Source of the DNA: a virus
Taxonomy: Duplodnaviria > Heunggongvirae > Uroviricota > Caudoviricetes
Strand: one strand, 5' to 3'
IMG/VR virus record: IMGVR_UViG_2617270997_000007
Coordinates: 1 to 12,167 of that record
Length of the DNA stretch: 12,167 nucleotides
Of this stretch, positions 3,907 through 11,297 are shown one piece after another. The notes beneath the pieces were generated by a model. That model was not told the origin of the DNA. It saw only the letters and a program-made list of their open reading frames with translations, and did no database searches. A program made the position numbers and the translations under genes. Numbering within the stretch: the stretch's first letter is position 1; every line of letters starts with the position of its first letter.

Positions 3907-4299
3907 ATGGCAAAAGTATTTACACCAGAAGAGCGGGAAGAAGTGAAGGCGCGCATTGTGGAATTCGTGCGCCTGAGCGGACGAGAAACTTTTCGACAAC
4001 TGGCAGATAAAACGGGTGTCAGTAAGACCGCTATTCGTCGTTTATCTGGTGCGCTTGCGGCCAGTGGTGATGTCTGGCTCTCTGGTTGCGGGGTATTTCC
4101 ATCAGAGCAGGCGTATCGCGTATGGCGTAAGACACCGGAGAAGGCTGCTGACCCGACACTGATTCGAAAGTTACCTGACGGAGAAATACGTCGTTACAAC
4201 AGACGGCAGAACATAATTTTTCGTGAGTGCCGCCAGAGCGAAGTTATGCAGCGTGTGCTGGCGTTCTATCGGGGAAACTTTCAGGAGGTGATGGAGTGA
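3907..4299 (+). CDS. Hypothetical protein with an HTH-like segment (130 aa)
   Basis: ATG 3907 with GGAGG 5 nt upstream; the track ORF starts at TTG 3892. Contains FRQLADKTGVSKTAIRRL. Its stop TGA 4297-4299 overlaps the next gene's GTG start. Confidence 0.55.
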   Translation: MAKVFTPEEREEVKARIVEFVRLSGRETFRQLADKTGVSKTAIRRLSGALAASGDVWLSGCGVFPSEQAYRVWRKTPEKAADPTLIRKLPDGEIRRYNRRQNIIFRECRQSEVMQRVLAFYRGNFQEVME

Positions 4300-4592
4300 G
4301 GGTCAGAGTTTATATTGCCGGTCCAATGACGGGATATGAAAATTTCAACCGTGAGGCGTTTCACAAGGCGGAAGAGGAACTGAAACGGGAAGGGCATACC
4401 GTCTTAAACCCGGCAGTACTTCCGGACGGGCTGACACAGCCGCACTACATGGATATTTGCATGGCAATGATTCGTTGTGTGGATGCGATTTACATGCTGA
4501 ATGGCTGGCAGCGGTCAGCGGGCGCTAAGGCAGAGCTGGCACTGGCGGAGAAACTGGGGCATGCAGTGATTTATCAGGAGGTGGCTCAATGA
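4296..4592 (+). CDS. DUF4406 / nucleoside 2-deoxyribosyltransferase-like small protein (98 aa)
   Basis: GTG 4296 with AGGAGG 7 nt upstream and a GTGA start/stop overlap. Motif VYIAGPMTGYENFN, then a conserved acidic region, as in the deoxyribosyltransferase/Rcl-like fold. Assignment is from motif memory. Confidence 0.55.
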   Translation: MRVRVYIAGPMTGYENFNREAFHKAEEELKREGHTVLNPAVLPDGLTQPHYMDICMAMIRCVDAIYMLNGWQRSAGAKAELALAEKLGHAVIYQEVAQ

Positions 4593-5056
4593 GAGAGGTT
4601 AACTATGAGGCGCTTCGTGAGGCAGCACAAAACTATCAGTCGACGCTGGCGTGGTATCAGGCTATCCCGGACAGCCCAAATGCTGAACGGGATTGTGATG
4701 CGGCTCTTGCTGCATTTAAGCGTCACATCCGTCATCGGGAAGCGGATATTATCGCTGATTTGCTGGATGGACTGGAAGAAGCAAAATCACAACTCAAAGA
4801 GCAGCGTGAGTATTACGAAGGCGTTATCTCTGATGGGAGCAAGCGTATTGCTGAACTGGAAGCGCGGGAAGTTCAATTACCGACTCGCTACGACCTTCGA
4901 TATGGACACCCGATAAATGCAGATGAGCGACATGTCATGATACCTAAAGAAAATGGCAGTTGGCTTTACCTGATTGACCTAGAACACGCATTACGCGTCT
5001 CTGGCATTCGCATCAAAGGAGAGGAGCATGGAAATAAAACCCAGAGGATGAGTTAA
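4589..5056 (+). CDS. Hypothetical phage protein with a predicted coiled-coil region (155 aa)
   Basis: ATG 4589 overlaps the upstream stop (ATGA), with GGAGG upstream. No recognisable catalytic motif. Confidence 0.6.
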   Translation: MREVNYEALREAAQNYQSTLAWYQAIPDSPNAERDCDAALAAFKRHIRHREADIIADLLDGLEEAKSQLKEQREYYEGVISDGSKRIAELEAREVQLPTRYDLRYGHPINADERHVMIPKENGSWLYLIDLEHALRVSGIRIKGEEHGNKTQRMS

Positions 5057-5086
5057 GCAATATCGTTTTATTTCCGGTAAAAGAGG

Positions 5087-5385
5087 ATGACCCTCGTAAT
5101 CAGGTTAATTTTCTTTATGAGCCATCGGAAAGACCATATTGTCATCACGCCTCTGTCCGGGTTGACGAAAAAGAGCGTCAGGTCCGCTGTAAAATCTGCG
5201 GTGCAGTTGTGGAGCCATTTGACTGGATGCTCTCTGTGGCGAAAAGAGAAACCAGACTGGCAGATGATGTAAGGCACTTGCGCCAGGAGGAGCGGGAAAG
5301 GCGAAAAAATATAGAAAAGCTAATTCAGATTGAGCGTAACGCGAAAGCGCGGATACGCAGGGCGACAAAATCCAGAACTGAATAA
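5087..5385 (+). pseudogene. Zinc-ribbon/coiled-coil ORF with a disrupted start: open frame 5038-5385 has no ATG/GTG/TTG before 5209. Possible frameshift at the T-run 5109-5116 or non-canonical initiation
   Basis: Frame-1 translation is protein-like over about 115 codons: ...NQVNFLYEPSERPYCHHASVRVDEKERQVRCKICGAVVEPFDWMLSVAKRETRLADDVRHLRQEERERRKNIEKLIQIERNAKARIRRATKSRTE*. It fills an otherwise empty 420-bp gap in a tightly packed operon. The only upstream ATG (5087) is in another frame. Confidence 0.3.
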
Positions 5386-5454
5386 TTAAATTTAGCTCTG
5401 TTAAAAATTTAATCCTTAACCGGAGGGATTTCTGCACCCTCAGAACATCAGGAG

Positions 5455-5472
5455 GCCGCCCGAAAGGGCGGT
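5455..5472 (+). promoter_or_regulatory. GC-rich hairpin with GAAA loop between the Shine-Dalgarno AGGAGG (5450-5455) and the ATG at 5479
   Basis: Stem ccgccc (5456-5461), loop gaaa, stem gggcgg (5466-5471), plus a possible G-U closing pair 5455/5472. No U-tract follows, so it is not a typical terminator. Folding would bring the SD from 23 nt to about 7 nt from the start codon. Confidence 0.35.
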
Positions 5473-5478
5473 AGTTAA

Positions 5479-5661
5479 ATGCGAAAGTTTAAAATAATTA
5501 TTGAAACGGGAATAGCCGGTGGAGATTTCGAGGATGAATTCGAAGTGGATGATGATGCGACGCCTGATGAAATACATGACGAAGCAAAAGATATTTTCTT
5601 TAACTACTGCAATTACTCATATCACGAAATAAAAGACGAAGAGGAAGAGCAAAATGGCTGA
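5479..5661 (+). CDS. Small, highly acidic protein (60 aa)
   Basis: MRKFKIIIETGIAGGDFEDEFEVDDDATPDEIHDEAKDIFFNYCNYSYHEIKDEEEEQNG: about 40% Asp/Glu. Complete ORF in the coupled operon. Confidence 0.55.
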   Translation: MRKFKIIIETGIAGGDFEDEFEVDDDATPDEIHDEAKDIFFNYCNYSYHEIKDEEEEQNG

Positions 5662-5830
5662 TTTTGGTTCAACTAAATACAACGTCAGTTTTGAAGCATG
5701 GCATGAACTGTTAATGGACTATGCAGAGTTACGTGGTGGCAGTGCTGCTGATGCTGAAGCATGGCGTGATGATTATGAAGCAGGAAAAACTCCGGTCGAA
5801 GCATATTGTGATGAGTGGGGCGATGAATGA
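5654..5830 (+). CDS. Small acidic protein (58 aa), not in the supplied ORF track
   Basis: ATG 5654 with GAGGAAG 6 nt upstream, overlapping the previous stop. Translation MADFGSTKYNVSFEAWHELLMDYAELRGGSAADAEAWRDDYEAGKTPVEAYCDEWGDE*. Its stop TGA 5828-5830 overlaps the next ATG at 5827 (ATGA). Confidence 0.45.
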   Translation: MADFGSTKYNVSFEAWHELLMDYAELRGGSAADAEAWRDDYEAGKTPVEAYCDEWGDE

Positions 5831-6342
5831 GCGAGATTAATTATCAGGAAGGGCATGAAACGGCAGGGCAGGCAAAACCAGTTGCATGGCGATATCGCTA
5901 CGTGAAAAAAGACGTTACAGACTTTCAGGGGAAGCCGTGGGCTGGTGACTGGAAATATGTACCGACAAAAGAGGATTGTAACGACAGGCCGAACTATGAA
6001 ATTCAGGCCTTATTCATCGGCCCGCCAGTCCCGGTGACATCAGAAGGACTGGTTAAAGCCGTGCGCTTTTATGAACAGGTAAAGCGTGAGAATCCGCCAG
6101 TCGAAACAGGAGCATGGAAGGATGCTGTTGACTGGGTGCTCAGAGAGGCCTGCTGCGCTGCCATTCTGGGTAAAGCCGACAATCCACCAGCATCCGGCAA
6201 TCAGGTTAGCGAATTAACAATGTGGGTTAAACGACTGGTCAGTCAACTGAAAAAAGCTCAGCCGGACTGCAAATTACCGGAGAAGGCGATGGATTACCTG
6301 AAACGAAATGGACTGATAAGCGTGGAGGATGTTTTACGATGA
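5827..6342 (+). CDS. Hypothetical phage protein (171 aa), last gene of the coupled operon
   Basis: Complete ORF with ATGA coupling to the upstream small ORF. No recognisable motif. Confidence 0.6.
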   Translation: MSEINYQEGHETAGQAKPVAWRYRYVKKDVTDFQGKPWAGDWKYVPTKEDCNDRPNYEIQALFIGPPVPVTSEGLVKAVRFYEQVKRENPPVETGAWKDAVDWVLREACCAAILGKADNPPASGNQVSELTMWVKRLVSQLKKAQPDCKLPEKAMDYLKRNGLISVEDVLR

Positions 6343-6462
6343 ATATTTAGACTAAAGAGTTTGTAACGCTATGTAAGTGATTTTTTCTGGTTTAGATATT
6401 TATATGTTCGGCCAAATTGAGGTGTGTTTAAATGTTATTGCACATTGATTGTAGGGGGAATA

Positions 6463-6642
6463 ATGAAAAACGCATTGCAGTTTTTGTTTGTTGCGTTCTG
6501 GTTGTTCGCATCATGTATGCCCATCATCTTCACAGCAAGGTATATGGAAAAAATTGATGTTTTGATATTAATGTTTGGACATATAAATGCCCTTTTTTTA
6601 GGGGTGTTCATGGCGGTCATGTGCATTGAATACTGGCGGTAA
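6463..6642 (+). CDS. Small hydrophobic membrane protein (59 aa, two predicted TM helices) in an AT-rich moron
   Basis: ATG 6463 with GGGGGA just upstream; the track ORF starts at GTG 6424. Sequence MKNALQFLFVAFWLFASCMPIIFTARYMEKIDVLILMFGHINALFLGVFMAVMCIEYWR. The surrounding region 6343-6660 is visibly AT-rich compared with its neighbours. Confidence 0.45.
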   Translation: MKNALQFLFVAFWLFASCMPIIFTARYMEKIDVLILMFGHINALFLGVFMAVMCIEYWR

Positions 6643-6784
6643 ATACAGCGAACGCCATTGGTTTAGTTGGATATTTACTGTGCCGGACAAAAACGGTTTG
6701 CGGGGAAATCTTAGTTAAGTAGAATAACTGCGGGTGCTTGAGGCTATCTGTCTCAGGCATGAACACCAAAAGGCAGATAGAGAA

Positions 6785-6851
6785 AAGCCCCAGTTAACAT
6801 TACGCGTCCTGCAAGACGCTTAACATTAATCTGAGGCCATATCTATGCGAC
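6785..6851 (-). ncRNA. sok: Sok-like antisense RNA of the hok locus (approximate position)
   Basis: Expected by analogy with hok/sok loci. A candidate - strand promoter has TTGACC (complement of 6882-6887), an 18-bp spacer and TAATCT (complement of 6858-6863), directing transcription leftward across the hok leader. The 3' end is not defined. Confidence 0.25.
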
Positions 6852-6904
6852 ACATAGAGATTAGCCTCTTACGGACCGAAAGGTCAAGGAGAAGCAGGCT
6901 ATGA
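6845..6904 (+). CDS. Mok-like short upstream ORF (19 codons) coupled to hok
   Basis: ATG 6845, translation MRHIEISLLRTERSRRSRL*, with stop TGA 6902-6904 overlapping the hok ATG (ATGA). Too short to judge on composition alone. Confidence 0.25.
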   Translation: MRHIEISLLRTERSRRSRL

Positions 6905-10264: not shown

Positions 10265-10340
10265 CGGCCCTTTAGCTCAGTGGTGAGAGCGAGCGACTCA
10301 TAATCGCCAGGTCGCTGGTTCAAATCCAGCAAGGGCCACC
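10265..10340 (+). tRNA. ileZ: tRNA-Ile2 (anticodon CAU, lysidine type; formally also readable as Met), 76 nt with encoded CCA
   Basis: Cloverleaf folded by hand: acceptor ggccctt/aagggcc, D-stem gctc/gagc, anticodon loop ctCATaa, T-arm gctgg-ttcaaat-ccagc, discriminator A, CCA. Near-identical to E. coli ileX as recalled. Confidence 0.85.
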
Positions 10341-10347
10341 ATCACAT

Positions 10348-10424
10348 ACCGCCATTAGCTCATCAGGAAAGAGCGCCAGCCTTCGAAGCTGGTTGCGCGG
10401 AGTTCGGGTCCCCGAAGGCGGTCC
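10348..10424 (+). tRNA. argN: tRNA-Arg (anticodon UCG), 77 nt, with non-canonical features
   Basis: Anticodon arm ccagc-ctTCGaa-gctgg is perfect and D-stem gctc/gagc is good. The acceptor stem has one A-A mismatch at pair 6, the T-stem has one A-C mismatch, and the T-loop is ttcgggt (G where the conserved A58 is expected). CCA is encoded. Confidence 0.6.
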
Positions 10425-10437
10425 ATTATCTGTATCC

Positions 10438-10514
10438 TGCGTTGTTAGCTCAGCCGGACAGAGCAATTGCCTTCTAAGCAATCGGTCACTGGTTCGAATC
10501 CAGTACAACGCGCC
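10438..10514 (+). tRNA. argO: tRNA-Arg (anticodon UCU), 77 nt with encoded CCA
   Basis: Clean cloverleaf: acceptor gcgttgt/acaacgc, D-stem gctc/gagc, anticodon arm attgc-ctTCTaa-gcaat, T-arm actgg-ttcgaat-ccagt, discriminator G, CCA. Confidence 0.85.
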
Positions 10515-10557: not shown

Positions 10558-10770
10558 TGTCTCACAATTCAGGCGGTTGACTGTTGTCTGGTTTGCGGGG
10601 AGTTTGTTAAAAGAAACTGGCATGGTGAATCCCCCTGTGCGGAGGGGCAATCAGCGAGTAGGTATATGGGATAATCGCGGATTCAGGTGCTGGTACTGAA
10701 TTCACCGGGAGGCACCCGGCACCATGCAATGGCACATAGCGCCACTCTCCAGCCCCTCTCCGGAGGGGCT
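10558..10770 (+). repeat. Structured repeat module A: promoter-like -35, two conserved GC hairpins and a terminal terminator hairpin (candidate small RNA or leader cassette)
   Basis: Shares ordered blocks with module B: ctcacaattcag; TTGACT (10574-10579); tttgttaaaa; hairpin cccct-gtgcgg-agggg (10629-10644); hairpin ccggg-aggca-cccgg (10702-10716) followed by ATG; terminator gcccctc-tccg-gaggggc (10749-10766) plus tttt. Confidence 0.6.
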
Positions 10771-10964
10771 TTTCTGTGCCGGATACATCACAGTTTCTGG
10801 AACCTTAGGTACTACAGTATCAGTCAGGGTGCTATATTTTCAGATGTGATGAAAGCCTGTCAGCAGGCAGGGCGTATCGGAAATGACCCAGTAGAGAAAA
10901 CGTTGACTCAGATACCGGTGCTGAGTTACCGGGAAACCGGCATCACATGACCGCTATCCTTCCA

Positions 10965-11028: not shown

Positions 11029-11262
11029 CTCACAATTCAGTAAGTTGACAGTTGCCTGTCAGACTGGGCATTTGTTAAAAAAATTTCGCATGGTGAATCC
11101 CCCTGAGCGGAGGGGCGACTGGTGACGGTATAATCTCTGATTATCAAAACGAGAATGACGCGGGTTTAGTGGCACCGGGCTGAACTCACCGGGAGGCACC
11201 CGGCACCATGTGCATGATGATACAGATACGCGGCTTTAGCCCCTCTCCGGAGGGGCTTTCTT
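11029..11262 (+). repeat. Structured repeat module B, paralogous to module A
   Basis: Same blocks in the same order: ctcacaattcag (11029-11040); TTGACA (11045-11050); tttgttaaaa; hairpin ccccctgagcggagggg; a TATAAT at 11129-11134; caccgggaggcacccggcaccATG; terminator gcccctc-tccg-gaggggc (11239-11256) plus T-tract. It has about 20 bp of insertion relative to A. Confidence 0.6.
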
Positions 11263-11267
11263 ATGGA

Positions 11268-11297
11268 CAAAAAAAGCCCGCGCTGGGAGACGCGGGC
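11268..11297 (-). terminator. Minus-strand intrinsic terminator immediately after module B
   Basis: On the + strand an A7 tract (11269-11275) precedes the hairpin gcccgcg-ctgggaga-cgcgggc (11276-11297). Read on the - strand this is hairpin plus U-tract. No convincing - strand gene lies upstream of it. Confidence 0.4.

What the first reader, a model, noticed from the sequence alone, without database searches (positions are those of the whole stretch)
5449..5481. Hairpin between the Shine-Dalgarno and the start codon (possible structure-dependent initiation)
Directly visible: AGGAGG lies 23 nt upstream of ATG 5479, too far for normal initiation, but a 6-7-bp GC stem with a GAAA tetraloop sits exactly between them. 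Folding would shorten the effective spacing to about 7 nt. This would make translation of the acidic mini-protein depend on RNA folding. It could also be a processing site.
Basis: seen in the sequence. Interest (0 to 1): 0.4.

Follow-up and report, generated by a model that had tools for sequence, protein, structure and literature searches.

The report
Portable hairpin-split ribosome binding site
The hairpin between the ribosome-binding sequence and the start codon is real, and it is part of a short conserved cassette that lambdoid prophages in about half of complete E. coli genomes place in front of several unrelated small genes, most likely to loop out 16 bases so that a distant ribosome-binding sequence sits at working distance from the start codon, as in two phage T4 genes.

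Summary
AGGAGG (5450-5455) is followed directly by a 6-7 bp G+C stem with a GAAA loop (5455/5456-5471/5472). Seven bases later comes ATG 5479, the true start of a 60-aa DUF7167 protein.

The hairpin does not belong to this gene. A 26-nt module, TC[A/G]GGAGG-CCGCCC-GAAA-GGGCGG-TA, recurs in lambdoid prophages. It is found in 2604 of 5426 complete E. coli genomes, up to 7 copies each, and is never annotated.

- It has two different upstream contexts and at least five unrelated downstream protein families.
- The start codon lies 6-9 nt after the stem in 94% of instances.
- The one family with an 11-nt spacer carries its own GGAG.
- The SD and the 3' arm are about six times less diverse than third codon positions.
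- 5' arm changes are mostly C-to-U, which keeps G-U pairs.

Formal covariation is not significant because the copies are too alike.

Best reading: a portable split translation-initiation region of the T4 gene 38/25 type that also marks a mosaic junction. No U-tract, no boxA and no Rfam match were found. Dependence on folding remains untested. A distant DUF7167 homologue uses an ordinary SD without a hairpin.

The parts
5448..5473 (+). Minimal shared module TC-AGGAGG-CCGCCC-GAAA-GGGCGG-TA (SD plus hairpin). This is the unit that recurs with different sequence on both sides.
   Evidence: Homology with context II copies begins 2-3 nt before the SD. Homology with copies in front of other genes ends 2 nt after the stem.
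5450..5455 (+). Shine-Dalgarno sequence AGGAGG, 23 nt before the ATG.
   Evidence: GGAG is invariant in all 123 copies recovered with an anchor that did not include it. Duplex with the 16S 3' end is -10.3 kcal/mol. Nucleotide diversity is 0.031 against 0.20 at third codon positions.
5455..5472 (+). Hairpin: stem C5456-G5471 to C5461-G5466 (six G-C pairs) plus G5455-U5472, with the GNRA tetraloop GAAA at 5462-5465.
   Evidence: 95-96% of cells are paired across 48-75 distinct copies. Variants are mostly C-to-U in the 5' arm. There is one G-C to A-U double change.
5472..5478 (+). A/U-rich spacer TAGTTAA between stem and start. It contains no SD-like word and ends in an in-frame TAA.
   Evidence: Spacer lengths of 6, 7, 8 and 9 nt account for 217 of 231 copies with a called ORF.
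5479..5661 (+). 60-aa acidic protein of family DUF7167 / phrog_1997. It is the first gene of a block of three overlapping ORFs (5479-5661, 5654-5830, 5827-6342).
   Evidence: The same CDS is annotated in ON470612.
5384..5447 (+). Upstream half of the long form of the cassette (context I). It comprises an A+T-only inverted repeat 5385-5393/5405-5413, the invariant ATCCTTAACCGGAGGG (5412-5427), and a possible hairpin G5423-G5427 with C5437-C5441. UCCU 5413-5416 and CCUC 5438-5441 are complementary to the SD.
   Evidence: The structures are thermodynamic predictions. The only compensated pair is one A-U/U-A swap in the A+T repeat.

Best explanation
The hairpin is the core of a portable, self-contained translation-initiation cassette of lambdoid prophages.

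Proposed mechanism:
- A strong SD (AGGAGG) is followed at once by a very stable 16-nt GNRA hairpin.
- After the hairpin comes a short A/U-rich spacer and then the start codon.
- On the mRNA the hairpin folds and bulges out of the path between the SD/anti-SD helix and the P site.
- The 23-nt linear distance then behaves like 6-9 nt, and the 30S subunit can use the SD. This is the mechanism shown experimentally for T4 genes 38 and 25.

Because the SD and the structure next to it travel together, any gene placed 6-9 nt after the stem gets the same initiation region. The cassette therefore also sits at the junctions where early-region genes are exchanged between phages.

Shown here: the anatomy, the correct start codon, the recurrence in front of unrelated genes, the constrained spacing, and stronger conservation than in the neighbouring coding sequence.

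Inferred: that the hairpin forms in vivo, that the upstream AGGAGG is the SD used, and that folding is needed for (rather than neutral or harmful to) initiation.
For: 1. Anatomy and stability: (stem pair probability 0.998; -12.4 to -14.4 kcal/mol).
2. True start; in-frame TAA at 5476-5478.
3. Recurrence: 2604 of 5426 complete E. coli genomes, 4245 places; 288 copies in fetched loci.
4. The module occurs in two upstream contexts and before at least five protein clusters unrelated by BLASTP. These are a 72-aa membrane-like protein, DUF7167, Ead/Ea22-like proteins, a ~173-aa protein and a 43-aa protein. The same genes are found behind both contexts.
5. The stem-to-start distance is 6-9 nt in 217 of 231 copies. 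None of these spacers holds an SD-like word. The one family with 11 nt has its own GGAG. ATG and GTG alternate at the same position in the Ea22-like genes.
6. Among copies anchored only on an upstream 16-mer, diversity is 0.031 in the SD and 0.033 in the 3' arm, against 0.09-0.10 at codon positions 1-2 and 0.20 at position 3 of the adjacent ORF.
7. The arms differ as an RNA on the + strand would predict. C-to-U changes opposite G occupy 20 cells at 5 of 6 C sites. G-to-A changes opposite C occupy 6 cells at 3 of 6 G sites. One is rescued by a compensatory change (counts).
8. Precedent: T4 gene 38 (22 to 5 nt) and gene 25 (27 to 11 nt), with mutational and probing support (PMC3014915).
9. PGAP and the GenBank submitters place the start right after the module.
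Against: - Formal covariation is not significant: 225 of 500 shuffles reach the observed number of double changes, and the RNAalifold covariation term is -0.12 kcal/mol. The copies are more than 90% alike, so pairing could simply be inherited.
- The spacing constraint is predicted equally if the SD-like 3' arm GGGCGGU (-8.2 kcal/mol) is the functional SD when the stem is open.
- In the long (context I) form, the GGAG of the SD is predicted to be only 0.30-0.48 unpaired, because CCUC 5438-5441 or UCCU 5413-5416 can pair with it. In context II it is 0.90 unpaired.
- High similarity could reflect recent spread by recombination rather than selection.
- A distant DUF7167 gene works without the hairpin.
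- No expression data were available.
Confidence: 0.55

Rival explanations
1. Mosaic-junction linker. The 26-nt module is kept mainly because it is a patch of shared sequence at gene boundaries where homologous recombination swaps early-region genes between lambdoid phages. The SD is functional, but the hairpin has no positive role in initiation. It would be neutral, or merely a structural insulator.
For: Homology breaks fall exactly at the two ends of the module. Both upstream contexts are found joined to the same four downstream gene families. Copies are more than 90% identical with no significant covariation. The element appears confined to E. coli/Shigella prophages in a one-genome-per-species scan, which suggests recent spread.
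Against: A pure linker need not contain an SD plus a very stable GNRA hairpin. It also need not sit at a fixed 6-9 nt from start codons that lack any SD of their own. The two arms differ in diversity (0.136 against 0.033) in the direction expected for an RNA on the coding strand, which a DNA-level homology patch does not predict. This reading is compatible with the best explanation rather than exclusive of it.
Confidence: 0.2
2. Inhibitory hairpin. The functional SD is the 3' arm GGGCGGU, which lies at a normal 6-7 nt from the ATG, and the stem locks it away. The upstream AGGAGG is too far away to act, or is only a standby site. Translation would then be low unless the stem is opened, for instance by ribosomes or helicases arriving from upstream.
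For: GGGCGGU pairs with the 16S 3' end at -8.2 kcal/mol. The 3' arm is as conserved as the SD, whereas the 5' arm is not. In the distant homologue, an ordinary SD (GGGGAG) occupies the position that the 3' arm occupies here. The 6-9 nt spacing fits this model equally well.
Against: The stem is far too stable to open spontaneously (-12 to -14 kcal/mol, probability 0.998). In context II, a ribosome stopping at the upstream TAA would reach only to about the SD, by my estimate from ribosome footprint size. The invariant perfect GGAG immediately 5' of the stem would be unexplained. C-to-U tolerance in the 5' arm already explains the difference between the arms.
Confidence: 0.13
3. Operator or processing/stability element. 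The hairpin next to the SD would be a binding site for a phage or host RNA-binding protein that represses or activates translation. Alternatively it would be a barrier that defines and protects an mRNA end after cleavage in the A/U-rich region upstream.
For: The conserved GNRA loop (GAAA in 274 of 288 copies) and invariant flanks resemble protein-recognised hairpins. Stable operator hairpins inside initiation regions are known (rpmE and thrS, PMC7297116). The A/U-rich sequence upstream (5386-5412) would suit RNase E.
Against: No candidate protein travels with the module. The downstream genes differ and the two upstream contexts differ. Loop variants GGCA, GAGA and TAAA exist. At 7 bp the stem is too short for RNase III, from general knowledge of that enzyme. 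No Rfam family matches.
Confidence: 0.1
4. Transcription signal: either an intrinsic terminator or attenuator, or a nut-like boxB site for N-type antitermination within the early operon.
For: It is a G+C-rich hairpin with a GNRA loop in a lambdoid early operon, lying between the replication genes and the nin-like region where lambda has tR2 (position from my own knowledge). The same 19-mer followed by TTTTCTTTT acts as an obvious terminator in one unrelated contig (L139).
Against: There is no U-tract. The stem is followed by UAGUUAAAU here and by A-rich spacers elsewhere, and the terminator scan found none on either strand. No boxA-like GCTCTT lies upstream. The loop is a tetraloop rather than the pentaloop of lambda/P22 boxB. 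There are up to 7 copies per genome and two per operon 1.0-1.7 kb apart, always 6-9 nt before a start codon.
Confidence: 0.02

Closest known systems
Split (hairpin-bridged) translation initiation regions of phage T4 genes 38 and 25 (Nivinskas et al. 1999; Malys and Nivinskas 2009; reviewed in PMC3014915)
   Same: An SD too far from the start codon (22 and 27 nt in T4, 23 nt here). A stable hairpin lies entirely within the spacer. The effective spacing after folding is in the working range (5 and 11 nt in T4, 6-9 nt here). The arrangement is conserved among related phages.
   Different: There is no sequence homology with the T4 regions. Here the SD abuts the stem directly. The unit is not tied to one gene but is shared by at least five unrelated gene families and two upstream contexts. 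It is found in temperate lambdoid prophages. There is no mutational or probing evidence yet.
Non-contiguous initiation regions with an operator hairpin (E. coli rpmE and thrS; PMC7297116)
   Same: A stable conserved stem-loop sits inside the initiation region without abolishing initiation.
   Different: In those cases the hairpin separates an AU-rich enhancer from the SD, not the SD from the start codon, and it is the binding site of a known repressor protein.
Conserved boundary or linker sequences at mosaic junctions of lambdoid phage genomes (described for HK97/HK022 and HK620; from my own knowledge, not checked in the held library)
   Same: A short conserved sequence lies exactly at gene boundaries, with unrelated sequence on either side, in the early regions of lambdoid phages.
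   Different: Those are discussed as recombination sites without a defined RNA structure. This one has a defined SD-hairpin-start geometry and strand-asymmetric conservation.
Lambda-type nut boxB hairpins
   Same: A short G+C stem with a GNRA-type purine-rich loop in an early lambdoid transcript.
   Different: The loop is a tetraloop, not a pentaloop. There is no boxA. There are many copies per prophage or genome. Its position is fixed relative to start codons, not relative to promoters.

Membership tests
Split (hairpin-bridged) translation initiation region, T4 gene 38/25 type | A canonical SD at a linear distance from the start codon that is too long for direct use (more than about 15 nt) | tested here: met
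   AGGAGG 5450-5455 lies 23 nt before ATG 5479. The same holds in all copies, at 22-25 nt.
Split (hairpin-bridged) translation initiation region, T4 gene 38/25 type | A stable local hairpin contained entirely in the SD-start spacer | tested here: met
   6-7 bp stem with a GAAA loop, -12.4 to -14.4 kcal/mol, pair probability 0.998.
Split (hairpin-bridged) translation initiation region, T4 gene 38/25 type | An effective SD-start spacing after folding within the functional range (T4: 5 and 11 nt) | tested here: met
   7 nt in the window. 6-9 nt in 217 of 231 copies in front of five gene families.
Split (hairpin-bridged) translation initiation region, T4 gene 38/25 type | The arrangement is conserved among relatives, with base pairing maintained | tested here: inconclusive
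   The arrangement is conserved and 95% of cells are paired, mostly through G-U-preserving changes. There is only one double change, and the shuffle control is not exceeded.
Split (hairpin-bridged) translation initiation region, T4 gene 38/25 type | Stem-disrupting mutations lower translation and compensatory mutations restore it; the structure is seen by probing | not testable with these tools
   Needs reporter fusions, toeprinting and DMS/SHAPE probing.
Intrinsic (Rho-independent) terminator | A G+C-rich hairpin followed directly by a U-rich tract | tested here: not met
   The tail is UAGUUAAAU. The scan found no terminator-like site in 4500-6500 on either strand. Tails in other copies are A-rich.
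Lambdoid nut site (boxA + boxB) | A boxA consensus a few bases 5' of a boxB hairpin with a 5-nt GNRNA-type loop; one site per early operon near the promoter | tested here: not met
   No GCTCTT-like boxA in 5400-5455. The loop is a tetraloop. Several copies occur per prophage and up to 7 per genome.
SD-sequestering hairpin (thermometer or riboswitch-like occlusion) | The SD used by the ribosome is base-paired within the stem | tested here: inconclusive
   AGGAGG lies outside the stem, except G5455 at probability 0.65. The SD-like GGGCGGU is inside it. Which of the two is used cannot be decided from sequence.
Any curated RNA family (Rfam 15) | A match at or above the gathering score | tested here: not met
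   No match at 5300-5600. The best is SscA at 18.5 bits against a gathering score of 60, E = 1.

The most novel reading that the evidence does not exclude
The cassette would be a natural 'standard part'. It would be a context-independent translation-initiation adaptor in which a hairpin clamps the SD in a fixed geometry and shields it from whatever coding sequence follows. The same 26 nt would double as the recombination joint through which lambdoid phages exchange early accessory genes. In its long form, competing anti-SD-like words (UCCU, CCCUC) would add a folding switch that tunes expression.
Probability: 0.25. Interest if true: 0.6.

Novelty: new member of a known kind. Interest (0 to 1): 0.45.

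Why it matters
Hairpin-bridged ribosome binding sites are textbook curiosities known from two T4 genes. If this one works the same way, the mechanism is not a T4 oddity. It would be in routine use in temperate phages carried by about half of sequenced E. coli, including O157:H7.

It would also give a concrete example of a non-coding unit that is both an expression signal and a mosaic joint, which bears on how phage accessory genes stay expressible after being shuffled.

Practically, gene callers disagree at these sites. DUF7167 entries of 78-93 aa read through the cassette. Knowing the module fixes the start codons of several families of small prophage proteins.

Tried and rejected
- Rfam, at gathering score and at permissive thresholds: nothing at the site.
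- Promoter and terminator consensus scans: nothing at 5386-5478.
- Literature search for the stem sequence and its complement: no paper. Searches on lambdoid boundary sequences and the exo-xis region gave no description of the element. Orf60a of lambda is a different protein from this 60-aa ORF.
- K-12 Rac prophage: no copy within 3 mismatches, so standard K-12 data sets cannot be used.
- One-genome-per-species scan. Four of the seven stretches are in E. coli or Shigella and three are on other contigs. Of those three I read only the Collinsella contig, which carries a cassette of the E. coli type and is probably contamination. No divergent copies were obtained for a real covariation test.
- Protein-guided locus search returned only 100%-identical DUF7167 genes and was useless for divergence.
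- Coding reading of the cassette as an N-terminal extension, as in 84-93-aa database entries. Rejected for three reasons. The window has an in-frame TAA before the ATG. Indels in the upstream loop change the frame. Spacers of 6, 7, 8 and 9 nt put the cassette in different frames relative to the genes.
- A first diversity calculation was discarded because alignment gaps scrambled codon phase and all regions were ascertained by search patterns. It was repeated on the 16-mer-anchored set only.

Full report
**1. The observation**

The sequence reads ...CATC AGGAGG CCGCCC GAAA GGGCGG TAGTTAA ATG....
- AGGAGG is at 5450-5455.
- The stem arms are at 5456-5461 and 5466-5471, and the loop at 5462-5465.
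- A possible seventh pair is G5455-U5472.
- The ATG is at 5479.

The linear SD-to-start distance is 23 nt, or 7 nt if the 16-nt hairpin is looped out.

The hairpin is the only feature retained in the centroid fold of 71-nt and 135-nt contexts. Alone it has -12.4 kcal/mol (6 bp) or -14.4 kcal/mol (7 bp). In a 200-nt context its pairs have a mean probability of 0.998.

A loosely defined 'SD-like word, stem, start codon' motif turns up about 1.2 times per shuffled window. The strict form did not occur in 3000 shuffles. The real argument that this is not chance is comparative, as set out below.

**2. The start codon**

The ORF 5479-5661 (60 aa, very acidic) is a member of Pfam DUF7167 (E 8e-15) and of phrog_1997, which it matches from position 1 to 57 of 57.
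- An in-frame TAA (5476-5478) forbids any upstream extension in the window.
- A homologue 64% identical (P0045) begins with the same MRKFK. It is preceded by an ordinary SD, GGGGAG, 6 nt upstream, with no hairpin.

So ATG 5479 is the start, and the hairpin is not an inherent feature of this gene family.

**3. Setting**

The window is a lambdoid (Qin/Rac-like) prophage. The near-identical phage record ON470612 annotates, on the + strand, dicC, cII, O, LygF, a hypothetical gene, then this ORF, followed by hok, ydfU, rusA and Q.

The site lies in a 93-nt gap in an otherwise tightly packed rightward operon. The ORF it precedes overlaps the next two ORFs (5654-5830 and 5827-6342). The site therefore heads a block of translationally coupled genes.

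**4. The hairpin belongs to a recurrent cassette**

BLAST hits in phage records covered only the intergenic part and were followed by different genes. Pattern scans of IMG/VR were anchored on four different parts of the region. They gave 288 copies in 100 distinct local contexts.

The shared core is 26 nt: TC[A/G]GGAGG-CCGCCC-GAAA-GGGCGG-TA. It occurs in two upstream contexts.
- Context I, as in the window, is a roughly 65-nt conserved leader. It has an A+T-only inverted repeat, the invariant ATCCTTAACCGGAGGG, and a possible second hairpin GAGGG/CCCUC.
- Context II starts 4 nt after the stop codon of another gene (...CACAACGATTAATGTC).

Downstream there are at least five protein clusters unrelated by BLASTP:
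- a 72-aa membrane-like protein;
- DUF7167;
- Ead/Ea22-like proteins of 107-322 aa;
- a ~173-aa protein;
- a 43-aa protein.

Four of these families occur behind both contexts.

In complete E. coli genomes, the 74-nt leader is found in 2604 of 5426 genomes at 4245 places, up to 7 per genome, and never under an annotated feature. A one-genome-per-species scan returned seven stretches. Four are in E. coli or Shigella and three lie on other contigs. Of those three I read only the Collinsella contig, which carries a cassette of the E. coli type and is probably contamination. K-12 Rac lacks the element.

**5. Geometry is constrained**

In 231 copies with a callable ORF, the distance from the stem to the start codon is as follows.

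| Stem-to-start distance | Copies |
|---|---|
| 6 nt | 96 |
| 7 nt | 76 |
| 8 nt | 7 |
| 9 nt | 38 |
| 11 nt | 9 |
| 2 nt | 5 |

- None of the 6-9 nt spacers contains GGAG, GAGG or AGGA.
- The 11-nt spacer (TGGAGATAATA) carries its own GGAG at a normal distance.
- In the 2-nt cases my script stopped at the first ATG that opens an ORF of 40 codons or more. In three of them a second, in-frame ATG lies 8 nt after the stem (MKMTELTK). The other two (MKNDRINQ) were not resolved.
- In the Ea22-like genes, ATG and GTG alternate at the same position.
- PGAP and the GenBank submitters call the starts immediately after the module.

Genes of five families thus depend on an SD supplied by the module, 22-25 nt away in linear sequence.

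**6. Conservation and pairing**

I took 30 distinct haplotypes recovered with an anchor outside the SD, hairpin and ORF. Nucleotide diversity was as follows.

| Region | Diversity |
|---|---|
| SD | 0.031 |
| 3' arm | 0.033 |
| Upstream loop and linker | 0.04-0.05 |
| 5' arm | 0.136 |
| Loop | 0.136 |
| Spacer | 0.145 |
| ORF codon positions 1 and 2 | 0.09-0.10 |
| ORF codon position 3 | 0.20 |

The SD and the 3' arm are therefore more conserved than the protein-coding positions next to them.

Across 48 distinct module sequences, 95.2% of cells form a standard pair. There are 28 one-sided changes that keep pairing, 16 that break it, and one G-C to A-U double change.

The shuffle control is not exceeded, so this is not statistical covariation. 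RNAalifold on 75 long-form copies gives a covariation term of only -0.12 kcal/mol.

What the variants do show is a strand asymmetry. C-to-U changes opposite G, tolerated as G-U in a + strand RNA, fill 20 cells at 5 of 6 C sites. G-to-A changes opposite C fill 6 cells at 3 of 6 G sites (my count). This matches the four-fold difference in diversity between the arms. A DNA-level palindrome or a minus-strand RNA would not predict this direction. The cells are not independent events, so I treat this as suggestive only.

**7. Mechanism**

The best-supported reading is a split initiation region. The hairpin folds, and the SD and the start codon come within 6-9 nt of each other, perhaps 2-3 nt more if the width of the helix end is counted (my inference). 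The 30S subunit then binds normally.

This has direct experimental precedent. In T4 gene 38, a hairpin reduces 22 nt to 5. In gene 25, it reduces 27 nt to 11. Destabilising mutations lower initiation, and the gene 25 structure is conserved in T-even phages (PMC3014915). Spacings beyond about 13-15 nt are poorly used in E. coli; this is from my own knowledge of the spacing literature and was not checked here.

Because the module carries both the SD and its neighbouring structure, it should give similar initiation in front of any gene. That fits its presence at mosaic joints.

**8. What weakens this**

- No significant covariation was found.
- The 3' arm GGGCGGU is itself a fair SD (-8.2 kcal/mol against -10.3 for AGGAGG) at 6-7 nt from the start. 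In the distant homologue, an ordinary SD occupies that position. The spacing rule therefore fits a 'masked SD' model as well, or a dual arrangement in which some SD lies about 7 nt from the start whether the stem is folded or not.
- In the long form, the SD is predicted to be partly paired with CCUC 5438-5441 or UCCU 5413-5416. The unpaired probability is 0.30 in the window and has a median of 0.48 in context I, against 0.90 in context II. The leader may therefore modulate rather than simply promote initiation.
- Similarity may owe much to recent recombinational spread.

**9. Rivals rejected or ranked low**

- Intrinsic terminator: there is no U-tract on either strand. One unrelated contig has the same stem followed by a T-run, which shows only that the stem is a generic stable hairpin.
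- nut boxB: there is no boxA, the loop is a tetraloop, there are many copies, and the position is tied to start codons.
- RNase III site: the stem is too short.
- Known RNA family: none.
- Coding extension: excluded by the in-frame stop, by the frame-shifting indels and by the variable spacer length.

**10. Novelty and verdict**

I found no description of this element. It is best filed as a new member of the known class of hairpin-bridged ribosome binding sites. Its additional traits are that it is portable between genes and very widespread in E. coli prophages.

I put about 0.55 on the split-site mechanism. My confidence is much higher, about 0.9, that the module is a conserved functional unit tied to translation starts. 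Interest is moderate: it is not surprising in principle, but it is a clean, easily testable generalisation of a mechanism known from only two genes.

Noticed in passing
window 5030-5060 (gene spanning about 5029-5385): The gene upstream of the cassette (phrog_1621 family) carries one extra C in the run AAAACCCAGAGG compared with ON470612. After MEIKP the frame runs into a stop, and the rest of the protein continues in another frame (5209-5385 matches profile positions 64-121). It is a frameshifted pseudogene or a sequencing error.
   Followed up: partly
window 5385-5393 / 5405-5413: A perfect 9-bp inverted repeat made only of A and T (ATTAAATTT / AAATTTAAT, 11-nt loop) lies just after the upstream stop codon, in a stretch with stop codons in all three frames. 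A second subtype of the cassette keeps 6 of the pairs, with one A-U to U-A swap (17 of 75 sequences).
   Followed up: partly
window 5412-5441: The invariant ATCCTTAACCGGAGGG contains a second SD-like GGAGGG and UCCUUA, which is identical to the last six bases of 16S rRNA. GAGGG 5423-5427 can pair with CCCUC 5437-5441, and CCUC or UCCU can instead pair with the real SD. This is a possible folding switch with no covariation to support it. In three IMG/VR loci (L011, L040, L043) the same 16-mer is not followed by the rest of the cassette. In L040 and L043 an ATG lies 6-7 nt after it, so there it may serve directly as an ordinary ribosome binding site.
   Followed up: partly
proteins P0003, P0004, P0009 (database homologues of window 5479-5661): Public DUF7167 entries of 84-93 aa begin upstream of the conserved MRKFK. 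P0003 and P0009 read through the cassette (…SLTGGISAPSEHQEAARKGGSE-MRKFK…), and P0004 has a different extension. These are probably start-codon miscalls that arise where the spacer variant TAGTGAA lacks the in-frame stop. In P0003 the ATG itself is changed (…GGSERRKFK).
   Followed up: partly
L002 about 1610-1630 and similar loci (Ea22-like genes behind the module): In the spacer TAATGAAAAATGACTGA, a four-codon mini-ORF (ATG AAA AAT GAC TGA) starts 2 nt after the stem and overlaps the real start codon.
   Followed up: no
window 6732-6903; 10266-10512; 10591-10781 and 11059-11268: Rfam matches above the gathering score: sok antitoxin RNA of a hok/sok-type locus, three tRNA genes downstream of the Q-like gene, and two copies of the sRNA family STnc100.
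   Followed up: no
L127, L131, L133 (GTDB contigs of Ruminiclostridium, Candidatus Curtissbacteria and a Collinsella MAG): These non-enterobacterial records contain the 19-mer of the cassette. L133 carries a full cassette of the E. coli type, which suggests E. coli prophage contamination or mis-binning.
   Followed up: partly
L021, L054, L091, L101, L161, L231: Single prophage contigs carry two copies of the module 1.0-1.7 kb apart, each heading a different small gene. One early operon can therefore use the cassette repeatedly.
   Followed up: partly
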